Shown one piece after another: positions 907 to 18,349 of a DNA stretch of 64,000 nt. The notes below the pieces were generated by a model that had not been told where the DNA came from, did no database searches, and worked only from the letters and a program-made list of their open reading frames with translations. The stretch's first letter is position 1; each line of letters starts with the position of its first letter. The DNA lies in IMG/VR virus record IMGVR_UViG_3300021963_000083, positions 1-64,000 of that record. The stretch is one strand, 5' to 3'. The position numbers and the translations under genes were made by a program. This stretch comes from a virus.

Positions 907-1033
907 TCTTTGGTATCGCTCGACAGGGCAAAAGCTCATTCTAGCTAATATCTCGAAGAATCACATGGACTACGGAATGAGCCCAGCTCAGCATCTACGT
1001 GCTAAGCAGGAACGCGCAGAAAATAATTCTTGA
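857..1033 (+). CDS. hypothetical protein, 58 aa
   Basis: GGAGA SD then ATG 857; MQETHTQKMERKRKQRDLWY...ENNS*. Confidence 0.5.
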   Translation: MQETHTQKMERKRKQRDLWYRSTGQKLILANISKNHMDYGMSPAQHLRAKQERAENNS

Positions 1034-1058
1034 CTTTTGGTGTAACTTTTGTTATATC
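1030..1058 (+). promoter_or_regulatory. promoter of the tmRNA gene
   Basis: TTGACT-17-TATATC (context GTTATATC), just upstream of the acceptor piece. Confidence 0.7.
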
Positions 1059-1064
1059 AGATAC

Positions 1065-1386
1065 ATAGTCGCTGACAGCCGACAATAAAAGCGGACAAGA
1101 CCGGAGTTCGATTCTCCGCGGCTCCACCATAGACACACCACTGTTTGATCGACAGAGTATGGTACTAACTGGATCGTATGCCAGTAGATAGGGTTCGAGT
1201 CCCTTGGTGTGTCTTTGATGGGGCCGACCTGGGTTCGATTGACGTGTAATAGGAACGCCGAGACTATTGACTGGCAAAGTGCCACTAAACTAAATGCTAA
1301 CGATAACGATAGCTTTGCAGATATCCGCCTAGCGGCATAATCTACACGGGTACGGCTCCACCTTGGAACAGAACGGGCCATTTTTC
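1065..1386 (+). ncRNA. ssrA: two-piece (circularly permuted) tmRNA, alphaproteobacterial type
   Basis: The acceptor piece ends CGGAG-TTCGATT-CTCCG-CGGCTCC-A-CCA at 1129. The coding piece starts GGGGCCGA at 1220, giving a 7-bp acceptor stem with G3:U70. Tag 1296-1340 reads ANDNDSFADIRLAA*. A 3' hairpin and T-run end near 1386. Confidence 0.93.
1131..1214 (+). ncRNA. tRNA-like element inside the tmRNA intervening segment
   Basis: AGACACACCA/TGGTGTGTCT closing stem, three internal hairpins and an AGGG-TTCGAGT-CCCT T-arm. No canonical anticodon loop. Confidence 0.7.
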
Positions 1387-1399
1387 ATAGGGAGATAAA

Positions 1400-1561
1400 A
1401 TGAGTAATCCATGGACTATACCTTTCGACGGCATCACGCATGTTTGTTGGAAAGATAAAGAAGGTACTCCACAGCACAGGAAGATGACATTCGCGGAAGA
1501 AAGCGCTTATTTCAAATCTAGTGACAAGGAGAAATACCTCAATGAACTACTCCGTATCTGA
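1400..1561 (+). CDS. hypothetical protein, 53 aa
   Basis: GGGAGA SD, ATG 1400, MSNPWTIPFDGITHVCWKD...LLRI*. Confidence 0.6.
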   Translation: MSNPWTIPFDGITHVCWKDKEGTPQHRKMTFAEESAYFKSSDKEKYLNELLRI

Positions 1562-1829
1562 GGAAGTACCCCTAGCTTGGGATCATATCATCAATACCTT
1601 TATAACTATGGTAGAAAATGATGTTAACTTTAATAATGGGGTAGCAATTGAAGATGTTCAATGTTCAGTACGACACGGAACTTTAGCTATTATGTATAGA
1701 GGTGGAAGCAAGATAACAGATGCTTTCTCTATGTTTGCTAAAGAAATGTCTGCTAATACTTGTTCAGGATGTTCAATGCCTTCTACTAGGCGTATATTTG
1801 GATCTCCTAAATGTGATGACTGCTACTAG
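1542..1829 (+). CDS. hypothetical protein with C-terminal CxxC...CxxC
   Basis: AAGGAG SD before ATG 1542; CSGC...KCDDC. Confidence 0.7.
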   Translation: MNYSVSEEVPLAWDHIINTFITMVENDVNFNNGVAIEDVQCSVRHGTLAIMYRGGSKITDAFSMFAKEMSANTCSGCSMPSTRRIFGSPKCDDCY

Positions 1830-2874: not shown

Positions 2875-3465
2875 ATGAATTTATTTTATCTTGACCATGA
2901 TTTAAACAAATGTGCCGAGTATCATATCGACAAGCACGTAGGTAAGATGCAGCTGGAAGCAGCGCAGCTTATGACTACTACACTGTGGGTCGATAAGTAT
3001 CTAGGCTTCATTCCACGTAAACTAACAAGCGAAGAACTAGGAGTTATTAATGAACATAAGCGTAATGAACCGGCTATTGACCAGCGTGTATTCACTCGAT
3101 ACCTGCCTACTCACATCAATCATCCCAGCGCTATTTGGGCACGTAGTAGCCTAGAGCATCACTACTGGATTATCAACTACATCAATGCTCTCAATGAGGA
3201 GACGATGTGGCGTGGTAATAAATCTCACGCATCCTGTGCAGAGGCCAATCGTATGCCAGAGCCTACTAGACTACCCAATGTAGGGTGGTCTACTCCAACT
3301 CTTGCAATGCCAGATCAGCTTAAGAGTGACGATGCTGTCGCTTCTTATCGCAAGTTCTATATGCTAGACAAAGGTCCGTTTGCTTCATGGAAAGTACGTG
3401 GTAAACCAGACTGGTGGGATGACGACATGGTAGCTGCACAGGCTGGAAGAATCTCAGGACGATAA
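2875..3465 (+). CDS. pyrimidine dimer DNA glycosylase / endonuclease V-like
   Basis: MNLFYLD...CAEYHIDKHVGKMQLEAAQL, THINHPSAIW, AMPD...YRKFY...K. Confidence 0.85.
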   Translation: MNLFYLDHDLNKCAEYHIDKHVGKMQLEAAQLMTTTLWVDKYLGFIPRKLTSEELGVINEHKRNEPAIDQRVFTRYLPTHINHPSAIWARSSLEHHYWIINYINALNEETMWRGNKSHASCAEANRMPEPTRLPNVGWSTPTLAMPDQLKSDDAVASYRKFYMLDKGPFASWKVRGKPDWWDDDMVAAQAGRISGR

Positions 3466-4132: not shown

Positions 4133-4326
4133 AAGATAAGATTAAAAGAGTGCTTAAGAAGCATTTCCAGGCCCATATTGATAAGCACGCAATGAACGTC
4201 CACATTATGATGGACAATCCAATGGCTATTCATGATCATACTGATTTTATGGCCGCTATTGAACTTGAGCTAGCACATATTGCCGAGTACAAGGATAAAC
4301 TAGAGGCACTGGAAGAGATTCAATGA
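4129..4326 (+). CDS. hypothetical protein
   Basis: GGAG SD and ATGA overlap with the upstream stop. Confidence 0.75.
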   Translation: MKDKIKRVLKKHFQAHIDKHAMNVHIMMDNPMAIHDHTDFMAAIELELAHIAEYKDKLEALEEIQ

Positions 4327-4994
4327 GTGAAGTAAACCTAATCTCTATCTCTAAGCCCAGTGCCTATACAGACTGTAACACAGCCGAAGAACTAGTAGCT
4401 TGGGGAGCTAGAGTATCTAATCCCTCGAATCAAAATAATATGGCGACAGCTAATAAATTGGTTAGTTATCTAATTAAGAATCAGCACTGGTCGCCACTGG
4501 AGATGGTCCATGTCAGCATGGAAATTAAAACAACTAGAGATATTGCTCGCCAAATCTTACGACACAGAAGCTTCGCCTTCCAAGAATATAGCCAACGTTA
4601 TGCTGATCCAACAAGAGATCTTGGCTTTGTTACAAGGGAAGCTCGCTTACAAGATCGGAAGAATAGACAGAACTCCGTCGAAGTAGATGACGCAAGGTTG
4701 GTCGAAGAGTGGAACATGATGCAACACTATGCCATTCAAACTGCTTCGGAAGCATATGAGTGGGCAGTTCGTAATGGTATTGCCAAGGAACAAGCACGTT
4801 CTGTGCTTCCAGAAGGCTGTACAGAATCAACCATGATTATGGCGGGAACTCTTCGTAGCTGGATTCATTATTGCCAGCTTCGTATGGATAAAGCCACTCA
4901 AAAGGAACATCGCATTGTTGCAGAACAGTGCTGGAACATTATTCAACAACATTTTCCAAATGTTGTTGAGGCCTGTCAAGGAACAGTGGAATGA
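4323..4994 (+). CDS. thyX: FAD-dependent thymidylate synthase
   Basis: HWSPLEM and the RHRSFAFQEYSQRY ThyX motif. Confidence 0.96.
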   Translation: MSEVNLISISKPSAYTDCNTAEELVAWGARVSNPSNQNNMATANKLVSYLIKNQHWSPLEMVHVSMEIKTTRDIARQILRHRSFAFQEYSQRYADPTRDLGFVTREARLQDRKNRQNSVEVDDARLVEEWNMMQHYAIQTASEAYEWAVRNGIAKEQARSVLPEGCTESTMIMAGTLRSWIHYCQLRMDKATQKEHRIVAEQCWNIIQQHFPNVVEACQGTVE

Positions 4995-5194: not shown

Positions 5195-5905
5195 ATGGCA
5201 ATCCGTAGTAAAGTAAAGGTTAAGGAAGGCGAAAACCTTACTGAAACCACTATTAAGAGGGTTATCGAACTTCTAGAAGCTCAGAAGCCTATCTCTAAGA
5301 AAGACGCTTGTGATATTCTTAATATCTCATATAATACTACACGTCTTACCAAGATTATCGAACAGTTTAAGCAAGACCAAGATGAGCAGCAGCGTCGTCG
5401 CGCTGCAAATCGTGGCAAAGCTGCAACCCCATTTGAGATTCAGGCCATTATTGAGGGCTATCTCGATGGAGACGCAATAGCAGACATTTCAAAGCGTATA
5501 TTCCGTTCTACGGGCTTTGTGAAGGAAGTTATTGAGTCGGTAGGCGTTCCACAGAAAGTTGTAGGTGCCAACTATTGGCAGCCTGGAATTATTCCGGAAC
5601 CCTGTGCACGAGAAGAATTCGAGCTAGGCCAAGTTGTTTGGCATGCTCGTAGGCATTGTATGGCCATCGTGTTAGAACGTAAGCATACGGTAAGTGAAAA
5701 GCACATCGCTAATTACTACCAAGTTTACGTTGTTGAGCCGATTGAAGAAGTTTCACCTTATTTTCCTCAGATTGATGGATATGGTGGCTACTACGACGGT
5801 GCCTATGCGTACGATCTAGGATCACTAGATCACCTTAAACAATATGGAGTGGACGTATATCGTCCATATAGACCCTACTTTAAAAAGTGGCTTGAAGGAA
5901 AATAA
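5195..5905 (+). CDS. T5 D2-like protein
   Basis: KPISKKDACDILNISYNTTRLTKII motif and 236-aa size resemble T5-like D2. Confidence 0.7.
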   Translation: MAIRSKVKVKEGENLTETTIKRVIELLEAQKPISKKDACDILNISYNTTRLTKIIEQFKQDQDEQQRRRAANRGKAATPFEIQAIIEGYLDGDAIADISKRIFRSTGFVKEVIESVGVPQKVVGANYWQPGIIPEPCAREEFELGQVVWHARRHCMAIVLERKHTVSEKHIANYYQVYVVEPIEEVSPYFPQIDGYGGYYDGAYAYDLGSLDHLKQYGVDVYRPYRPYFKKWLEGK

Positions 5906-6272
5906 ATTGCTTGTACATCATCACCTTGTAGTGAGGGCAGAATTAGCTGCCCCACCAACTGACCCAACTTATATTACTATCTGGAAGAAGAACCTAGTAG
6001 AAGCTATTGGAATGAAAATTCTAATGGGCCCATATGCTACGTATTCTGATATGGAGGGTAATCGTGGATTAACCGTAGCGACAGTCATTGAGACTAGTCA
6101 TATAGTTCTGCACGTCTGGGACGAAGAAAGTCCTGGCCTGATGCAACTTGATGTGTACTCTTGTGCCGAGTTTGATAAAAATACTATTTTTGCTGCAATT
6201 CAAGAGTTTCTGCCCACAAAAATAGACTACAAATTTCTAGACCGTACAGGCGACTTTATCCTAGCCTCGTAG
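5844..6272 (+). CDS. speD: S-adenosylmethionine decarboxylase-like pyruvoyl enzyme (true start probably near 5890)
   Basis: HHHL, GLTVATVIETSHIVLHVWDE, QLDVYSC..F. Confidence 0.85.
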   Translation: MEWTYIVHIDPTLKSGLKENKLLVHHHLVVRAELAAPPTDPTYITIWKKNLVEAIGMKILMGPYATYSDMEGNRGLTVATVIETSHIVLHVWDEESPGLMQLDVYSCAEFDKNTIFAAIQEFLPTKIDYKFLDRTGDFILAS

Positions 6273-6904: not shown

Positions 6905-8731
6905 ATGGCAAATCTTTTAAAGATTAAAAGAGGTACTAGAGCTCAACTTAATGCTGCTGTCACAGGTAATACATTAAATCTTGGCGAACCGTACCTAATT
7001 ACAGACGAAAATCGTATCGCAGTAGGTACAGGATCAAACAGTTATGAAGTATTCGCTAAATCTAGCGAAGTTCAGGCACTAGATGCCGACCTTACTTCAA
7101 TTTCTGGACTAACAGGTACAGGATTCCTAAAGAGAAGCGGTGTCGACACTTATGTACTAGATAATAGTACATACTTAACAGCAGAGAGTGATACATTAGC
7201 TACAGTAACTGGTCGTGGAGCATCTACTGCTACCGCAGTTACATTAACTGGAGGTGTAACTCTCAACGCTGCTGGCTCAACAAATGGCGCTATCTTTGCT
7301 GGTTCCACAAGTGGAACGACCAAAGTAGTAGCAAGTGCTGTTGCAGGTACAACTACTCTAACATTGCCTGCAAGTACTGGTACAGTAGCTTTAACAAGTG
7401 ATCTACCTACAGTAAACAACGGTACTCTTACATTTTCAATAGGTGCTGCAGGCGCAAGTAATACAACAGTTACAGTTGGTACTGGTACTGGATATAGTGC
7501 AAATACAGCAACTAATACAACATATAGTATTAGTGTAGGTCCGGCACTCACAGCCCTAGCCACATTCATGAATACAGCTACCGCTGGTTTCATTAGACGT
7601 ACAGGTACTGATACTTATGCTATTGATACAAGTACGTATCTAACTGGCAACCAGTCAATTTCTATTTCTGGGGACGCTTCTGGTAGTGGTACTACCGCAA
7701 TTACACTAACACTAGCAAACTCTGGTGTTACTGCGGGTACATATACTAAAGTACAGGTTGATGCTAAAGGACGTGTAATTGCTAGCAGCTCACTGGCTGC
7801 TTCAGATATACCTACACTTACTGCTGCAAAGATTAGTGATTTTGATACTCAGGTAAGAACATCACGTCTAGACCAAATGGCAGCTCCTACAGCTTCTGTT
7901 GCTTTCAACTCACAAAAGATCACAGGTCTTGCTGATCCTACCGCTGCACAAGATGCAGCTACTAAGAACTACGTGGATCTTGCTATTCAAGGACTCGATC
8001 CTAAAGCAAGCACTGTAGTAGCAACAACTGCTAACTTAACAGTAACAGCTACTACACAAACACTAACTAATAGTGGGACTCAAGCCGCACTAGCTATTGA
8101 TGGTGTCACACTAGCGGCGAATGATCGCGTACTTGTTAAAGATCAGACTACTCCTGCACAAAATGGTATTTTCGTAGTAACCAACATTGGTTCCGGATCT
8201 ACAAACTGGGTACTTACTCGCTCAGATGATGCCAGTTTATGGTCTGAACTACCTGCTGCGTTTGTATTCGTTGAAAAAGGCTCCACAAATGCTGATAACG
8301 GTTTTCTATTCACAGTAGAGCAGGGTGGTACACTTGGTACAACTCCAATTACAATTACACAGTTCTCCGGAGCTGGACAAATTACCGCAGGTAATGGTCT
8401 AACTAAGACAGGCAATACAATCGACGTTGTAGGTACTGCTAACCGCATTACAGTTGCAGCCGATGCGGTTGACATTGCCTCTACCTATGTGGGTCAAACT
8501 TCGATCACTACACTTGGTACAGTAGGTACCGGTACCTGGAACGCTACAGCTATTGGCGCAATTTATGGTGGTACAGGACAGACAACATATGCAGCCGGTG
8601 ACATCCTTTATGCTAATGGTACCAATACTTTGACCAAGCTTACTAAGCCAGCGTCATTAGATTCATTTTTACAAATGACCAGTGCTGGTGTTCCATCATG
8701 GGTCAGCACAATTGACGGCGGAACATTCTAA
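6905..8731 (+). CDS. fibre-like structural protein, 608 aa
   Basis: KIKRGT N-motif, GTYTKVQVDAKGRV fibre repeat, DAATKNYVD, DRVLVKDQTTPAQNGI, C-terminal IDGGTF. Confidence 0.8.
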   Translation: MANLLKIKRGTRAQLNAAVTGNTLNLGEPYLITDENRIAVGTGSNSYEVFAKSSEVQALDADLTSISGLTGTGFLKRSGVDTYVLDNSTYLTAESDTLATVTGRGASTATAVTLTGGVTLNAAGSTNGAIFAGSTSGTTKVVASAVAGTTTLTLPASTGTVALTSDLPTVNNGTLTFSIGAAGASNTTVTVGTGTGYSANTATNTTYSISVGPALTALATFMNTATAGFIRRTGTDTYAIDTSTYLTGNQSISISGDASGSGTTAITLTLANSGVTAGTYTKVQVDAKGRVIASSSLAASDIPTLTAAKISDFDTQVRTSRLDQMAAPTASVAFNSQKITGLADPTAAQDAATKNYVDLAIQGLDPKASTVVATTANLTVTATTQTLTNSGTQAALAIDGVTLAANDRVLVKDQTTPAQNGIFVVTNIGSGSTNWVLTRSDDASLWSELPAAFVFVEKGSTNADNGFLFTVEQGGTLGTTPITITQFSGAGQITAGNGLTKTGNTIDVVGTANRITVAADAVDIASTYVGQTSITTLGTVGTGTWNATAIGAIYGGTGQTTYAAGDILYANGTNTLTKLTKPASLDSFLQMTSAGVPSWVSTIDGGTF

Positions 8732-15540: not shown

Positions 15541-15623
15541 GAGGGCGTGGCGAAATGGTAGACGCAAGAGACTTAAAATCTCTCGGTTCATCCGTGCGGG
15601 TTCGAGTCCCGCCGCCCTTACCA
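15541..15623 (+). tRNA. tRNA-Leu(TAA)
   Basis: GAGGGCG/CGCCCTT stem, AGAGA-CTTAAAA-TCTCT, variable arm, CCA. Confidence 0.95.
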
Positions 15624-15624
15624 T

Positions 15625-15715
15625 AGTCCTATAGCTTAAAGGTAGAGCGGTCGGATTTATATCCCGAAGCCCAGATTAGGGATCGGTCTCGGTTCGAATC
15701 CGAGTAGGACTACCA
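15625..15715 (+). tRNA. tRNA-Ile(TAT) with long variable arm
   Basis: AGTCCTA/TAGGACT stem, loop TTTATAT, extra arm CCC-AGATTA-GGG, T-arm CTCGG-TTCGAAT-CCGAG, ACCA. Confidence 0.8.
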
Positions 15716-15729
15716 GTTTTGGAGGAAGT

Positions 15730-15912
15730 ATGAAAGTAGTTATCACAAGTAGTTATCCTCTTCGGGATGGAAATATTACTTCTTATTACAGTTTTCCCGT
15801 ATACTCTACTGATATAGAGGAAACTCTGTGCAGACAGCTAGAGTTCCTTAAGCAGTATGATAAATTCTCTCTCGAAATGAAGATTACACAGGGATCTGAA
15901 AAAAGTTCTTGA
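15730..15912 (+). CDS. hypothetical protein
   Basis: GGAGG SD; 60 aa. Confidence 0.65.
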   Translation: MKVVITSSYPLRDGNITSYYSFPVYSTDIEETLCRQLEFLKQYDKFSLEMKITQGSEKSS

Positions 15913-15937
15913 CATTATAGTATAACTTAGCTATAGT
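15909..15937 (+). promoter_or_regulatory. promoter
   Basis: TTGACA-17-TATAGT (context GCTATAGT). Confidence 0.8.
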
Positions 15938-15962
15938 ATGTTTTCAATGAAAGGAAAGCCCA

Positions 15963-16229
15963 ATGAACATCGAAGCTATTCGAAACCTGCTAAAAACAGA
16001 TTTAGTTACTGTAGTCTTTACCAAAAAGGACGGGACTAAGCGCGAGATGCATTGCACTACTATTTCTGAGTATCTCCCTGAGATAGCTCGTAGTATTACT
16101 AATATGCCACCAAAAGAAGATGTTGTAACTGTATGGGATCTAGAGCAGAACGCTTGGCGTTCATTCTTGCTCGATTCTATCGTATCTATTGAGACGGATG
16201 ATTTTAAATATGTGGTTGAACGCGCGTAA
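15963..16229 (+). CDS. SH3/WYL-like small phage protein (DUF2693-like)
   Basis: VFTKKDGTKREMHCT...VWDLEQNAWRSF. Confidence 0.75.
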   Translation: MNIEAIRNLLKTDLVTVVFTKKDGTKREMHCTTISEYLPEIARSITNMPPKEDVVTVWDLEQNAWRSFLLDSIVSIETDDFKYVVERA

Positions 16230-16638
16230 GGCAATTCTAGCGTCTAGTGAACACTCGTCGATTTACATTGGCTGTGACTCCTTACGTATCCCTAAAAAGA
16301 ATAAGGCTCTGTACTCTACAGTAGTAGTTCTACACATGGACTCAAAGCATGGATGTAAGATTTTCCATAATCAGATAACTGTTCCAGACTATGGTCAGAT
16401 GCGTCCACGACTTCTTATGGAAGTGCAATACGCTCTTGAGGCTTTCTACGCTATCGAAGATATAGTAGGAAATCGACGTCTAGAGGTTCATCTAGATGTT
16501 AACCCGGATCCTCGCCATGCAAGTAACGTAGTTACTAGTGAAGCACTAGGGTGGGTTAGAGGACTAGGTATTCAGGCTAGAATTAAGCCAGATAGTTTCG
16601 CTGCTACTACAGCGGCCGACCATTTCGTAAGACACTAG
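16210..16638 (+). CDS. YkuK-like RNase H-fold protein (DUF458)
   Basis: IYIGCDS...RLLMEV...EVHLDVN...IKPDSFAATTAADH. Confidence 0.75.
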   Translation: MWLNARKAILASSEHSSIYIGCDSLRIPKKNKALYSTVVVLHMDSKHGCKIFHNQITVPDYGQMRPRLLMEVQYALEAFYAIEDIVGNRRLEVHLDVNPDPRHASNVVTSEALGWVRGLGIQARIKPDSFAATTAADHFVRH

Positions 16639-16714
16639 GTCCCGTAGCTCAGCTGGATAGAGCACGAGCCTTCTAAGCTTGGGGTCACAGGTTCGAATCC
16701 TGTCGGGATCACCA
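16638..16714 (+). tRNA. tRNA-Arg(TCT)
   Basis: Cloverleaf, loop CTTCTAA, ACCA. Confidence 0.95.
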
Positions 16715-16724
16715 TTTCTAATAT

Positions 16725-16799
16725 TCCCTGATGGCGCAGCGGTAGCGCAGTTGACTGTTAATCAATTGGTCGGAGGTTCGAATCCTTCTCAGGGAGCCA
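16725..16799 (+). tRNA. tRNA-Asn(GTT)
   Basis: Cloverleaf, loop CTGTTAA, GCCA. Confidence 0.95.
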
Positions 16800-16807
16800 G
16801 GACATTT

Positions 16808-16978
16808 ATGATTGAATATGCACTTTTAGGGTACGCCCTTACAATTCTTATATTTTTTGGTTGGGTAATAAAGGATGCCAAAAGGTACTCTCCTTCATTC
16901 ATCCTAGCTGTTACCTTATTTAGCTTATTTTGGCCAATAGTTTTGGTCATATATTTGCTAGATAACAAAGAAGCCTAG
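16808..16978 (+). CDS. small membrane protein
   Basis: AGGA SD, ATG 16808, two hydrophobic segments. Confidence 0.6.
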   Translation: MIEYALLGYALTILIFFGWVIKDAKRYSPSFILAVTLFSLFWPIVLVIYLLDNKEA

Positions 16979-16979
16979 T

Positions 16980-17055
16980 ACTCCTGTAGCTCAATGGTTA
17001 GAGCTGACCGCTCATAACGGTTAGGTTAGGGGTTCGAGTCCCTTCGGGAGTACCA
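16980..17055 (+). tRNA. tRNA with CAT anticodon, Ile2 type
   Basis: GACCG-CTCATAA-CGGTT arm and TAGCTCAATGGTTAGAGC D-arm, typical of lysidine-modified tRNA-Ile2. Confidence 0.85.
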
Positions 17056-17074
17056 TTATTTTCATTACTATTAT

Positions 17075-17150
<76 letters not shown>

Positions 17151-17183
17151 GTAACAATAAATAGCTAGTTATATACTAACTCT

Positions 17184-17257
17184 TGCCCCTTCCTCTAATG
17201 GTAAGAGAGCGGACTTTGAATCCGTCAATTTAGGTTCGAGTCCTAGAGGGGCATCCA
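17184..17257 (+). tRNA. tRNA-Gln(TTG)
   Basis: TGCCCCT/AGGGGCA stem, loop CTTTGAA, TCCA. Confidence 0.93.
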
Positions 17258-17278
17258 AAAAGAAAGGAGAACTAATAT

Positions 17279-17494
17279 ATGTGGCGTCTATGGTGTAAAG
17301 CACTTGGTCAAAAGGCTACAGAATGTAATAAAGAGTCAGATAGAGTAGCTATTATACGCACTATAATTCTAGTCGCATATATGATTGCTAACGCCTTCAT
17401 CGTGGCGGGTGTCATTAGACACTGGAACGATGGTAATAATACAGCCGAACTTCAGATTGAAGTAGAAGTTCAAGAAAAACAATTCATGCCGTAA
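17279..17494 (+). CDS. small membrane protein (MWRLWCKALG family)
   Basis: AAGGAG SD; one TM segment. Confidence 0.75.
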   Translation: MWRLWCKALGQKATECNKESDRVAIIRTIILVAYMIANAFIVAGVIRHWNDGNNTAELQIEVEVQEKQFMP

Positions 17495-17529
17495 GGGTGA
17501 ATAAATAATCTCGCTTAAGGAGGAGATAT
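17483..17529 (+). promoter_or_regulatory. ROSE-like RNA thermometer upstream of hsp20
   Basis: ATCTC-G-CT-TAAGG-AG-GAGAT hairpin with a UCGCU motif pairing the SD. Confidence 0.65.
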
Positions 17530-17967
17530 ATGATGAATAATGATTTTGCACGTTTCTTTGTTGGGTACGACAAAGTACTAGATAAACTAACTAATATTGC
17601 GGATCAATCCGCCAGACTAATACAGAATTATCCACCGTTTAATCTTAAAAAAGTCGATGAGAATAAGTACGCTATCGAGATAGCTCTAGCTGGCTTTAGT
17701 AAAGAAGATGTTCAGATTGAAATAGATGGCTCAAAGTTAGTTATTACAGGGAACGTAGAATCTAAAGATGCGGAAGATACTTTTGTGTTTAAGGGAATCT
17801 CTAATAAGCCGTTTACCCGAGAGTTTACACTAGCAGACAATGTTGAAGTTCAGGGAGCTGAATTTATTAATGGTATGCTAATAATTGCACTCACCACTAT
17901 AACGCCACAATCTAATAAGAAAAAGATTAATATTAAAGAAGCAGCCAAAGCTAAAACCGTGTCTTAA
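17530..17967 (+). CDS. small heat shock protein Hsp20 (IbpA-like)
   Basis: NYPPFNL...IEIALAGF...KGIS...FTREFTLADNVEV.GAEFINGML. Confidence 0.95.
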   Translation: MMNNDFARFFVGYDKVLDKLTNIADQSARLIQNYPPFNLKKVDENKYAIEIALAGFSKEDVQIEIDGSKLVITGNVESKDAEDTFVFKGISNKPFTREFTLADNVEVQGAEFINGMLIIALTTITPQSNKKKINIKEAAKAKTVS

Positions 17968-17992
17968 AACTAGCCTTATGTCAATTTTATTG

Positions 17993-18021
17993 TTGACATG
18001 TGTGCTGATTTTTGCTAGATT
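17993..18021 (+). promoter_or_regulatory. promoter
   Basis: TTGACA-17-TAGATT (context GCTAGATT). Confidence 0.75.
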
Positions 18022-18046
18022 GTTAATCTAATTTGAAAGGAAGGTT

Positions 18047-18271
18047 ATGACTGAACCAAAACTAATGGAAATCTGGTGTGAAGGCGATCCCCGTCGCGAT
18101 TACACCGCCTGCCATCTTGGGTATGGAAAGGGAACCACACTAGCGGAAGCTTGTGAAGATTGGTCCTCACGAAATAACTACTTTAAAGAGCACTATAATC
18201 CACACAATATGACGTATTGTGGGTGCAAAGTATTCGATAATGAATCGGATGCGAGGGAATTGTATAACTAA
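18047..18271 (+). CDS. hypothetical protein
   Basis: AAGGAAGG SD; 74 aa. Confidence 0.7.
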   Translation: MTEPKLMEIWCEGDPRRDYTACHLGYGKGTTLAEACEDWSSRNNYFKEHYNPHNMTYCGCKVFDNESDARELYN

Positions 18272-18274
18272 TGC

Positions 18275-18349
18275 GTCGGTGTAGTGAAATGGCTATCATT
18301 ACGGTCTCCAAAACCGTCGTTCTGGGTTCGAATCCCAGCACCTTCGCCA
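18275..18349 (+). tRNA. tRNA-Trp(CCA) with two acceptor-stem mismatches
   Basis: ACGGT-CTCCAAA-ACCGT, intact T-arm, GCCA; acceptor GTCGGTG/CACCTTC. Confidence 0.85.

What the first reader, a model, noticed from the sequence alone, without database searches (positions are those of the whole stretch)
1130..1219. tRNA-like cloverleaf nested in the intervening segment of a phage permuted tmRNA
Seen: 90 nt lie between the tmRNA acceptor CCA (1129) and the GGGGCCG 5' end (1220). They fold as a separate tRNA-shaped RNA: a 10-bp closing stem (AGACACACCA/TGGTGTGTCT), a D-like hairpin (CTGT-TTGATCG-ACAG), a mini-hairpin (AGTA-TGG-TACT), a long arm (ACTGG-ATCGTATG-CCAGT) and a T-arm (AGGG-TTCGAGT-CCCT) stacked on the closing stem. 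There is no 7-nt anticodon loop and no encoded CCA. Known: in alphaproteobacterial permuted tmRNAs this segment is a spacer removed during processing. Inference: tmRNA maturation may release a second, anticodon-less tRNA mimic. It could act as a decoy for tRNA-targeting defence nucleases or toxins, a ligand for RNA repair or quality-control proteins, or a processing aid. I know of no described equivalent.
Basis: partly seen in the sequence, partly recalled or inferred. Interest (0 to 1): 0.85.

Follow-up and report, generated by a model that had tools for sequence, protein, structure and literature searches.

The report
tRNA-like RNA nested in phage tmRNA
The stretch that is cut out when this phage's two-piece ribosome-rescue RNA matures is a conserved, anticodon-less tRNA look-alike, also found in about twenty other phage sequences, so the "spacer" is probably a small RNA gene riding inside another RNA gene.

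Summary
Window 1130-1219 lies between the CCA end (1129) and the G1 start (1220) of a permuted tmRNA (Rfam RF04321, 92.6 bits).

ARAGORN and Rfam do not call it a tRNA. It belongs to a family of 14 distinct sequences on 21 phage contigs. In this family 94.6% of cells are paired, and 13 of 23 pairs show compensatory changes, against 6.7±1.4 in shuffles (0 of 500 as high) and 1-5 with slid partners. All four modelled helices covary.

The element always starts 0-2 nt after an encoded CCA. On 19 contigs it sits in a tmRNA spacer; on 2 it follows a tRNA-Thr. Close relatives with an identical tmRNA carry unrelated spacers, or only 5 nt, so tmRNA does not need it.

Best reading: a portable passenger tRNA-like RNA whose acceptor/T-arm top half lets RNase P excise it. 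Cleavage, release and any function in trans are inferred.

Only a single intact tRNA-Ala in a tmRNA spacer is in print (PMC11915505). This scan noted a similar passenger RNA earlier on other DNA (e1-5402571).

The parts
1030..1058 (+). promoter-like TTGACT - 17 nt - TATATC just upstream of the tmRNA gene
   Evidence: Read. The same stretch is kept in nearly all relatives printed. The consensus scan did not flag it, because its second hexamer ends in C.
1067..1129 (+). tmRNA acceptor piece (3' half of the tRNA-like domain), ending in the encoded CCA at 1127-1129
   Evidence: Rfam RF04321, 92.6 bits, model positions 1-63.
1130..1219 (+). intervening segment, which is the nested anticodon-less tRNA-like RNA (long form)
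   Evidence: Fold. Covariance model R1 scores it 80.7 bits, E 2e-20. Family covariation.
1131..1140 (+). closing (acceptor-like) helix, 5' strand; pairs with 1205-1214
   Evidence: In the family, 6 of the 9 modelled pairs have compensatory changes and 100% of cells are paired.
   Evidence: 5 of 6 pairs have compensatory changes.
1156..1166 (+). mini-hairpin AGTA-TGG-TACT, whose TGG loop is identical in all 14 distinct sequences; candidate stand-in for D-loop G18 G19
   Evidence: The innermost pair is A-U in 10 distinct sequences and U-A in 4. Its role in an elbow is inferred.
1168..1185 (+). long arm ACTGG-ATCGTATG-CCAGT, present only in the 4 long-form sequences; the 10 short-form sequences carry a fixed linker that contains the palindrome TTCTAGAA
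   Evidence: (one compensatory pair; loop identical in 4 of 4).
1190..1204 (+). T-arm AGGG-TTCGAGT-CCCT, stacked directly on the closing helix
   Evidence: it matches only the T-arm part of other models. T-stem cells are 100% paired with one compensatory pair.
1205..1214 (+). closing helix, 3' strand
   Evidence: As for 1131-1140.
1215..1219 (+). unpaired tail TTGAT, the leader before tmRNA G1
   Evidence: 15 of 19 distinct T-arm-bearing spacers end in GAT.
1220..1382 (+). tmRNA coding piece; tag reading frame 1296-1340 (ANDNDSFADIRLAA, stop)
   Evidence: Rfam calls RF04321 and RF01849. ARAGORN reads the same tag on L063, whose coding piece is identical over the tag.

Best explanation
The 90 nt between the two halves of this T5-like phage's permuted tmRNA gene are a copy of a conserved, portable, anticodon-less tRNA-like RNA.

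Anatomy: an acceptor-like closing helix stacks on a canonical T-arm, about 14 bp in all. A mini-hairpin with a constant UGG loop could play the part of the D-loop in a tRNA elbow. There is one variable hairpin and, in the long form, an extra arm.

The element sits 0-2 nt after an encoded CCA end. The most likely course is as follows. The precursor is cut by RNase P at the 5' side of the nested helix, which leaves the tmRNA acceptor piece with CCA plus 1-3 nt for exonucleolytic trimming. It is cut again at G1 of the coding piece. The tRNA-like top half is thus the handle for its own excision, and an RNA of about 85 nt is set free as a passenger small RNA.

Shown: structure, conservation, covariation, position, portability, and that tmRNA can do without it. 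Inferred: both cuts, release, stability and any action in trans.
For: The flanks are a permuted tmRNA.

The family has 14 distinct sequences on 21 contigs. 94.6% of cells are paired, and 13 of 23 pairs have compensatory changes (0 of 500 shuffles as high; slid controls 1-5). On the plain MAFFT alignment of 10 sequences the figure is 12 of 28 pairs (0 of 500). RNAalifold independently gives 3 of the helices. The mini-hairpin loop and T-loop are constant, and the mini-hairpin's inner pair flips from A-U to U-A.

All 15 aligned copies begin 0-2 nt after a CCA. Every tmRNA-borne copy tested lies inside a permuted tmRNA: Rfam for 7 of 7 family loci and for L158 and L164; ARAGORN for L257, L259 and L260. 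The host tmRNAs score as alpha type or as beta type.

Portability: L258 and L261 carry the element directly after tRNA-Thr, while their tmRNA spacer keeps L257's closing stem around a different interior.

Dispensability: L003 has a 100% identical tmRNA and an unrelated 53-nt spacer. Other relatives have 5-nt or 16-nt spacers.

A wider set of 19 distinct spacers keeps a T-arm. In 13 of them it lies within 3 nt of the 3' strand of the closing helix. An acceptor helix stacked on a T-arm is, from my recall, the minimal RNase P substrate.

From papers: pre-tmRNA is an RNase P substrate, and tRNA-like structures direct RNase P end formation in MALAT1/mascRNA and in plant mitochondrial t-elements (PMC4919922, passages). 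Permuted pre-tmRNA is 'probably' processed by RNase P and tRNase Z (PMC3985003, passages).
Against: No RNA-level data exist for this element. Only assembled metatranscriptome contigs were on offer, and they cannot show ends.

The stacked helix is about 14 bp, not the 12 bp of tRNA, so the exact RNase P site is uncertain.

Relatives with unrelated structured spacers or 5-nt spacers mature without the element, so it is not needed for processing.

The single-sequence fold is only z = -2.19.

The family was collected with patterns that fix the T-loop, the mini-hairpin or the linker, so the constancy of those motifs is partly by design. Against that, 5 distinct members found without fixing the mini-hairpin all have it, and 4 distinct sequences found without fixing it show the covarying variant.

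Contigs from similar habitats may be related, which inflates shuffle-based significance. The slid-partner control speaks against that.
Confidence: 0.55

Rival explanations
1. A purely cis-acting aid. The nested tRNA-like fold only clamps the two tmRNA halves together and recruits tRNA-processing enzymes. The excised piece is then degraded and has no function of its own.
For: Every long spacer, with or without a T-arm, has a closing helix that starts 0-2 nt after the CCA. The part shared by the widest set of spacers is only the closing helix plus the T-arm. R1 scores those other spacers at just 21-27 bits.
Against: Loops and linkers that RNase P should not need are constant: the UGG loop, the linker containing TTCTAGAA in 10 of 10 short forms, and the arm loop in 4 of 4 long forms.

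In L258 and L261 the element is kept next to a tRNA-Thr while the tmRNA spacer holds something else.

Related modules occur as free-standing elements outside tmRNA. An identical tmRNA matures in relatives without the element.
Confidence: 0.22
2. A decoy or sponge. The released mimic titrates a host factor that reads the tRNA elbow or acceptor end. Candidates are a defence toxin acting on tRNA 3' ends, RNase P, the CCA-adding enzyme, or the tmRNA partner SmpB.
For: The anatomy is that of a tRNA top half without an anticodon. In all 21 contigs the element lies within about 300 nt of a tmRNA gene. The phage record has no SmpB of its own (0 hits; the record is 81% complete). The phage is T5-like; from my recall, not from a call, T5-like phages are known for tRNA-centred conflicts with host defences.
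Against: There is no anticodon loop, so it cannot mimic the target of anticodon nucleases. It has no encoded CCA and no G3:U70 pair. Nothing here shows binding or stability.
Confidence: 0.12
3. A selfish or neutral insertion. A tRNA-derived mobile or recombining cassette is tolerated in the spacer because the spacer is removed anyway. Structure is kept only so far as it ensures harmless excision.
For: Spacers are swapped between otherwise identical tmRNA genes, and the same spacer type sits in different tmRNA backbones. Closing stems can be shared while interiors differ, as in window versus L063 and L257 versus L258.
Against: There are no repeats, target duplications or enzyme genes. The structure is kept with compensatory changes in all four helices across tmRNAs as different as alpha- and beta-scoring types.
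Confidence: 0.08
4. A decayed tRNA gene, or a chance fold in a neutral spacer.
For: ARAGORN and Rfam do not recognise a tRNA. The single-sequence z-score is modest. Some relatives, such as the L003 type and L060, hold T-arm-like remnants that look degenerate.
Against: Covariation in 13 of 23 pairs and constant loops across 14 distinct sequences.
Confidence: 0.03

Closest known systems
Intervening sequence of circularly permuted (two-piece) tmRNA genes, including the one reported case with an intact tRNA-Ala gene inside it (PMC11915505, passages read)
   Same: It lies between the CCA of the acceptor piece and G1 of the coding piece, and is absent from mature tmRNA by definition of the gene form. 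A tRNA-shaped RNA sits in that slot.
   Different: The published case is a single, high-scoring, intact tRNA in one nominally archaeal genome bin, and the authors called it unique. Here the RNA is not a tRNA: it has no anticodon arm, a 10-bp closing helix, and gets no ARAGORN or Rfam call. It forms a conserved family in phage tmRNAs and also occurs next to a tRNA.
tRNA-like end-formation signals cut by RNase P: MALAT1/mascRNA, MEN-beta/menRNA, and plant mitochondrial t-elements (PMC4919922, passages read)
   Same: A tRNA-like fold placed directly 3' of the end to be made. The excised tRNA-like piece becomes a small RNA (mascRNA). The proposed mechanism here is the same.
   Different: Those are eukaryotic or organellar. 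There is no sequence relation: the Rfam mascRNA-menRNA model matches only the 15-nt T-arm at 12.9 bits, against a cut-off of 42.5. Cleavage is not shown here.
Spacer tRNA genes in bacterial rRNA operons and polycistronic tRNA transcripts separated by RNase P (my recall; no paper read)
   Same: One stable-RNA gene nested in the transcribed spacer of another. tRNA-type cuts free both the passenger and the host RNA.
   Different: The passenger here is not a decoding tRNA, and the host RNA is a phage tmRNA.
Phage T4 small stable RNAs RNAC and RNAD at the end of the tRNA cluster, of unknown function (PMC3014915, passage read; annotation and sequence)
   Same: Phage-encoded small RNAs of unknown role, transcribed with tRNAs. 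rnaC ends in a hairpin, a T-arm and an acceptor-like 3' strand (read).
   Different: Model R1 does not recognise them; the best match is 8.5 bits, on the T-arm only. They are not in a tmRNA spacer.
The tmRNA tRNA-like domain and bacterial Y-RNA (YrlA) tRNA-like modules
   Same: An acceptor/T-arm stack with a D-loop substitute and no anticodon.
   Different: No Rfam tmRNA or Y-RNA model matches 1130-1219 at E up to 10. There is no G3:U70 pair, no CCA and no Ro-binding stem.

Membership tests
canonical tRNA (Rfam RF00005; ARAGORN) | Recognised by tRNA detectors (RF00005 at 29 bits or more; an ARAGORN call) | tested here: not met
   No ARAGORN gene at 1130-1219 or in any of 20 relatives' tmRNA regions. 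No RF00005 match at E up to 10.
canonical tRNA (Rfam RF00005; ARAGORN) | T-arm with a 7-nt T-loop of the TTCRANT type, stacked on the acceptor stem | tested here: met
   1190-1204 abuts 1205-1214. It is kept in 14 of 14 distinct sequences.
canonical tRNA (Rfam RF00005; ARAGORN) | Anticodon arm with a 7-nt loop; 7-bp acceptor stem with discriminator and CCA | tested here: not met
   No arm has a conserved 7-nt loop; the loop of hairpin 1 varies from 3 to 7 nt. The closing helix is 9-12 bp. No CCA follows it.
intervening sequence of a permuted tmRNA gene | Lies between the acceptor-piece CCA and coding-piece G1 of a gene matched by the permuted tmRNA model | tested here: met
   RF04321 at 92.6 bits places 1130-1219 as an insertion in the loop that closes the acceptor stem.
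intervening sequence of a permuted tmRNA gene | Removed from the mature two-piece RNA | not testable with these tools
   Only assembled RNA contigs were on offer.
tRNA-like RNase P end-formation signal (mascRNA / t-element kind) | tRNA-like acceptor/T-arm fold directly 3' of the RNA end to be made | tested here: met
   The helix starts 0-2 nt after CCA in 15 of 15 aligned copies.
tRNA-like RNase P end-formation signal (mascRNA / t-element kind) | Cleaved by RNase P at its 5' side | not testable with these tools
   Needs an in vitro cleavage assay or 5'-end mapping.
mascRNA-menRNA (RF01684), tRNA-Sec (RF01852), Y RNA families | Score at or above the family's gathering cut-off | tested here: not met
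   RF01684 scores 12.9 against 42.5; RF01852 scores 11.8 against 47; no Y-RNA match.
new family defined here (model R1) | Closing helix, hairpin 1, UGG mini-hairpin and T-arm in this order, matched by R1 with a strong score | tested here: met
   The window scores 80.7 bits. The 5 members not used to build R1 score 65-84.5 bits (L257-L261). The next-best non-members score 28 bits or less.
T4 RNAC/RNAD small stable RNAs | Similarity detectable by model R1 | tested here: not met
   Best match 8.5 bits, on the rnaC T-arm only.

The most novel reading that the evidence does not exclude
Phages use the throw-away spacer of their two-piece tmRNA gene as an expression slot for a trans-acting, anticodon-less tRNA-elbow mimic. 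The mimic would be made in one-to-one amounts with tmRNA and released by the cell's own RNase P. It would then engage a factor that reads the tRNA top half: SmpB or another tmRNA partner, a defence toxin that acts on tRNA 3' ends, RNase P, or the ribosome. This would be a new class of phage small RNA with free-standing relatives in phage tRNA arrays.
Probability: 0.3. Interest if true: 0.88.

Novelty: new variant of a known kind. Interest (0 to 1): 0.72.

Why it matters
The spacer of permuted tmRNA genes is treated as waste, and tmRNA finders model it as an unscored insertion. Here it holds a conserved, covarying structured RNA with the recognition surface of a tRNA but no decoding part. The same RNA moves between tmRNA spacers and a position after a tRNA.

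If RNase P cuts it, this would be, as far as my searches found, the first phage counterpart described of the MALAT1/mascRNA arrangement. It would also explain how long structured spacers can be tolerated directly after a CCA end.

If the freed RNA acts in trans, it opens a class of phage tRNA mimics that standard tRNA and Rfam scans miss. In practical terms, ARAGORN missed the tmRNA of this window, perhaps because of the long structured spacer; that cause was not tested.

Tried and rejected
tRNA identity. ARAGORN and Rfam give no tRNA, tRNA-Sec, Y-RNA or mascRNA membership.

Cultured relatives. BLAST of the window's tmRNA region and of two family members against 50,697 phage records found no copy of the element. 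It found only short tmRNA or T-arm matches. ARAGORN calls permuted tmRNAs in all four records fetched (Pelagibacter phage Mosig, Stenotrophomonas phage DLP_6, Erythrobacter phage L02, Rhodobacter phage RcSimone-Hastad). My script parsed the spacers of RcSimone-Hastad and L02 only; both are long, closed by a helix, and lack a T-arm.

Host. The 24-mer of the tmRNA T-arm and acceptor end hit 36 places in Coriobacteriia genomes and two integrase-side att-like sites (L002, L004). This says nothing about the host.

Expression. The look-up of sequencing runs listed only Logan contigs. Four RNA runs laid on 1000-1450 gave contigs of relatives over about 1207-1441. Nothing covered 1130-1206, and one contig (X17) ran into an L060-type spacer. 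Contigs cannot show ends, so I draw no conclusion on the nested RNA.

T4 RNAC/RNAD as relatives: R1 does not match them.

A free-standing 'type B' element BLASTed to phages matched only the T-arm and acceptor part of a tRNA-Tyr.

SmpB is not found in the 84.6-kb record.

Papers. Keiler 2000 (PMC16621) and Sharkady & Williams 2004 (PMC516066) are not held, so what I say about them is recall. Supplements are closed; the supplementary tables of PMC11915505, which list its 79 phage tmRNAs and their intervening sequences, might show members of this family that I could not see.

The claim 'not in print' rests on searches and on Rfam 15.

Not used: protein searches, structure prediction, complex prediction.

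Full report
WHAT IS THERE. Window 1026-1382 (+) is a circularly permuted tmRNA gene: Rfam RF04321 at 92.6 bits over 1067-1340, and RF01849 at 69.9 bits over 1026-1382. ARAGORN missed it. The acceptor piece ends in CCA at 1129 and the coding piece starts with GGGGCCG at 1220. The tag frame 1296-1340 reads ANDNDSFADIRLAA.

There is a 10-bp closing helix (1131-1140 with 1205-1214), hairpin 1 (1141-1155), a mini-hairpin AGTA-TGG-TACT (1156-1166), a long arm (1168-1185) and a T-arm AGGG-TTCGAGT-CCCT (1190-1204). The T-arm abuts the closing helix. The fold has an energy of -29.9 kcal/mol and z = -2.19, and 6 of 200 shuffles fold as well.

It is not a tRNA by any detector. ARAGORN finds none. Rfam at E up to 10 gives only T-arm-sized matches (RF01684, 12.9 bits) and a tRNA-Sec alignment of 11.8 bits.

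The record is an 84.6-kb IMG/VR phage contig. It is distantly T5-like: it has Pfam T5 p143 and p140 domains, and its DNA polymerase A is 44% identical to those of Aeromonas and Proteus T5-like phages.

THE SPACER IS A SWAPPABLE SLOT. L003 has a tmRNA whose flanks are identical to the window's in every aligned column. Its spacer, however, is an unrelated 53-nt hairpin, while the rest of that contig is 82-93% identical to the window. L006 has the window's spacer unchanged.

A 20-mer of the coding piece found 17 viral contigs. With the window, L005 and L006 that makes 20 sequences and 14 distinct spacers. Two are 5 nt long and one is 16 nt. The other 11 are 53-143 nt, each closed by a helix that starts 0-1 nt after the CCA. 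Three of the 14 hold a canonical T-arm.

L044 and L063 share the window's promoter, the start of the acceptor piece and the whole coding piece. They differ in both halves of the tRNA-like domain and in the spacer interior, yet keep the window's outer closing stem. So the tmRNA does not need this element, and spacers recombine.

THE ELEMENT IS A CONSERVED FAMILY. A scan for a T-arm placed 5-35 nt before a tmRNA 5' end gave 90 loci. I set aside those in which the T-arm is the tmRNA's own. That left 31 entries with 19 distinct spacers that carry a nested T-arm; two of these, L136 and L132, are doubtful. In 13 of the 19 the T-arm lies within 3 nt of the 3' strand of the closing helix.

Several of these have the window's whole arm order. 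A scan for the mini-hairpin plus a T-arm and a scan for the short-form linker plus a T-arm added more. In all there are 21 contigs and 14 distinct sequences. Four are long-form like the window; ten are short-form, with the arm replaced by a fixed linker that contains the palindrome TTCTAGAA.

COVARIATION. On a plain MAFFT alignment of the first 10 distinct sequences, my structure gives 92.6% paired cells. 12 of 28 pairs have changes on both sides, against 5.2±1.4 in shuffles (0 of 500 as high) and 2-3 when partners are slid. RNAalifold, run without my structure, predicts the closing helix, hairpin 1 and the T-arm, and 11 of its 19 pairs have compensatory changes.

I built a covariance model, R1, from that alignment. 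It scores family members at 65-97 bits, including five that were not used to build it. Everything else in about 1.75 Mb of fetched phage DNA scores 28 bits or less.

On the model-fitted alignment of 14 distinct sequences, 94.6% of cells are paired and 13 of 23 pairs covary (0 of 500 shuffles; slid controls 1-5). All four modelled helices contribute. The mini-hairpin's inner pair is A-U in 10 sequences and U-A in 4, while the UGG loop stays fixed. That alignment leans towards the model, but the MAFFT and RNAalifold results do not.

CONTEXT. Nineteen contigs carry the element inside a permuted tmRNA. Rfam confirms this for 7 of 7 family loci scanned and for L158 and L164. ARAGORN confirms it for L257, L259 and L260. 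The remaining contigs are duplicates with the same spacer.

The host tmRNAs differ widely. Some score best as alpha type (the window, L068, L134, L150, L077, L117). Others score as beta type (L158, L164, L196). The contigs range from 4 kb to 353 kb.

Two contigs, L258 and L261, carry the element 1 nt after the CCA of a normal tRNA-Thr, which lies about 160 nt downstream of their tmRNA. In those contigs the tmRNA spacer has the same closing stem as L257 but another interior. In all 15 aligned copies the closing helix begins 0-2 nt after an encoded CCA. The phage has a single copy.

HOW IT MOST LIKELY WORKS. The parts that are kept are those of a tRNA top half. An acceptor-like helix stacks coaxially on a T-arm, about 14 bp in all, and a constant GG loop could pair with the T-loop as D-loop G18 and G19 do. 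The elbow role is inferred.

That surface is what RNase P, RNase Z and the CCA-adding enzyme read; this is established tRNA biology as I recall it. Pre-tmRNA is an RNase P substrate, and tRNA-like folds direct RNase P end formation elsewhere (PMC4919922). A review holds that permuted pre-tmRNA is probably cut by RNase P and tRNase Z (PMC3985003).

An RNase P cut at the 5' side of the nested helix would leave the acceptor piece with CCA plus 1-3 nt. The known cut at G1 would make the other end. The structured spacer would then not block 3' trimming, and an RNA of about 85 nt would be released.

Three observations argue that the RNA is more than a processing handle. The element is kept next to a tRNA when the tmRNA spacer holds something else. 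Loops and linkers that RNase P should not need are constant. Related modules stand alone in other phages (below). I therefore rate 'portable passenger RNA excised by tRNA-type cuts' at 0.55 and 'cis-acting aid only' at 0.22. The other rivals are a specific decoy role (0.12), a selfish cassette (0.08), and decay or chance (0.03).

COMPARISON WITH WHAT IS KNOWN. The 2025 tmRNA database paper reports, as unique, an intact tRNA-Ala gene in the intervening sequence of one permuted tmRNA (PMC11915505, passages). Two-piece tmRNAs in aquatic phages are published (PMC9004378, passages). I found no paper describing a tRNA-like family in phage tmRNA spacers, and Rfam 15 has no model for it.

This scan noted a comparable 'T-arm passenger RNA inside phage tmRNA' on another genome (e1-5402571). 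It also noted that phage tmRNA spacers are swappable slots (e1-5661280, e1-6020789). Other windows hold the short form inside tmRNAs that were noted only as tmRNAs. Those are unchecked notes and not evidence.

VERDICT. This is a new variant of a known kind: a tRNA-like structured RNA in a tmRNA intervening sequence. RNA-level proof is lacking.

Noticed in passing
L155:1771-1834(-), L218:2674-2735(+), L163, L165, L211, L222 and others (loci): Free-standing mini elements outside any Rfam tmRNA hit. A 5-7 bp closing stem encloses the same 10-nt mini-hairpin motif, followed 5-7 nt later by a T-arm. Of 43 distinct sequences with that spacing, 14 are of this kind. L155 and L218 match the window at 29 of 30 positions from the mini-hairpin through the T-arm, once the window's 19-nt arm insertion is set aside (by eye). 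R1 scores them 25-26 bits.
   Followed up: partly
L159:8196-8316(+), L161, L171, L175, L198, L216, L249 and others: RNAs of about 120 nt in phage tRNA arrays with two T-arms. The second T-arm is preceded by the same mini-hairpin motif. The outer acceptor-like helix has a G:U pair at the third position and no encoded CCA. 25 of the 43 distinct sequences are of this kind. Rfam tRNA scores one at only 32.7 bits and ARAGORN finds none. They may correspond to the scan's earlier 'two-headed alanine tRNA-like phage RNA' (e1-5367092); I did not check this.
   Followed up: partly
L157:~3070-3190(+), L162, L169, L193, L205, L209, L226, L238, L245: RNAs of about 115 nt with an alanine-type acceptor helix and, in 7 of the 9 loci, an encoded CCA. 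They have an inner T-arm, the same 10-nt motif, and then a tmRNA-like 3' half. No tag frame was looked for. There is no Rfam tmRNA hit at that place in L157 or L162.
   Followed up: no
window 1096-1246 versus L044/L063: The two halves of the tmRNA tRNA-like domain together with the spacer differ as one block, while the promoter, the start of the acceptor piece and the whole coding piece are identical. This points to recombination that swaps the domain and spacer as a unit.
   Followed up: partly
window 1400-1561 and 1521-1829 (+): A 53-aa ORF and a cysteine-rich ORF of about 95 aa follow the tmRNA in the window and its relatives. Metatranscriptome contigs of relatives run from the coding piece into the first ORF. 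No Pfam search was done on either.
   Followed up: no
window 6905-8731 (+), 4323-4994 (+), 5844-6272 (+): A tail-fibre-like ORF with an Mtd_N (major tropism determinant) N-terminal domain, a ThyX thymidylate synthase, and an AdoMet-decarboxylase-like ORF. I did not look for a diversity-generating retroelement.
   Followed up: no
window 15541-18349 (+): Eight tRNA genes, including an unusually long (91-nt) tRNA-Ile with anticodon TAT at 15625-15715.
   Followed up: no
L254 (Stenotrophomonas phage DLP_6), L255 (Erythrobacter phage vB_EliS-L02), L256 (Rhodobacter phage RcSimone-Hastad): ARAGORN finds permuted tmRNA genes in these three cultured phages at places where the records list no RNA feature. 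RcSimone-Hastad has a 97-nt spacer whose closing stem and TTGAT tail resemble the window's, but it has no T-arm. Its host, Rhodobacter capsulatus SB1003, is cultured, so it could serve as an experimental stand-in for long spacers.
   Followed up: partly
L002:7395-7418(-), L004:9354-9377(-): The 24-mer of the window's tmRNA T-arm and acceptor end recurs next to an integrase-like reading frame in two small viral contigs. These look like attachment-site copies of a host tmRNA or tRNA 3' end.
   Followed up: no
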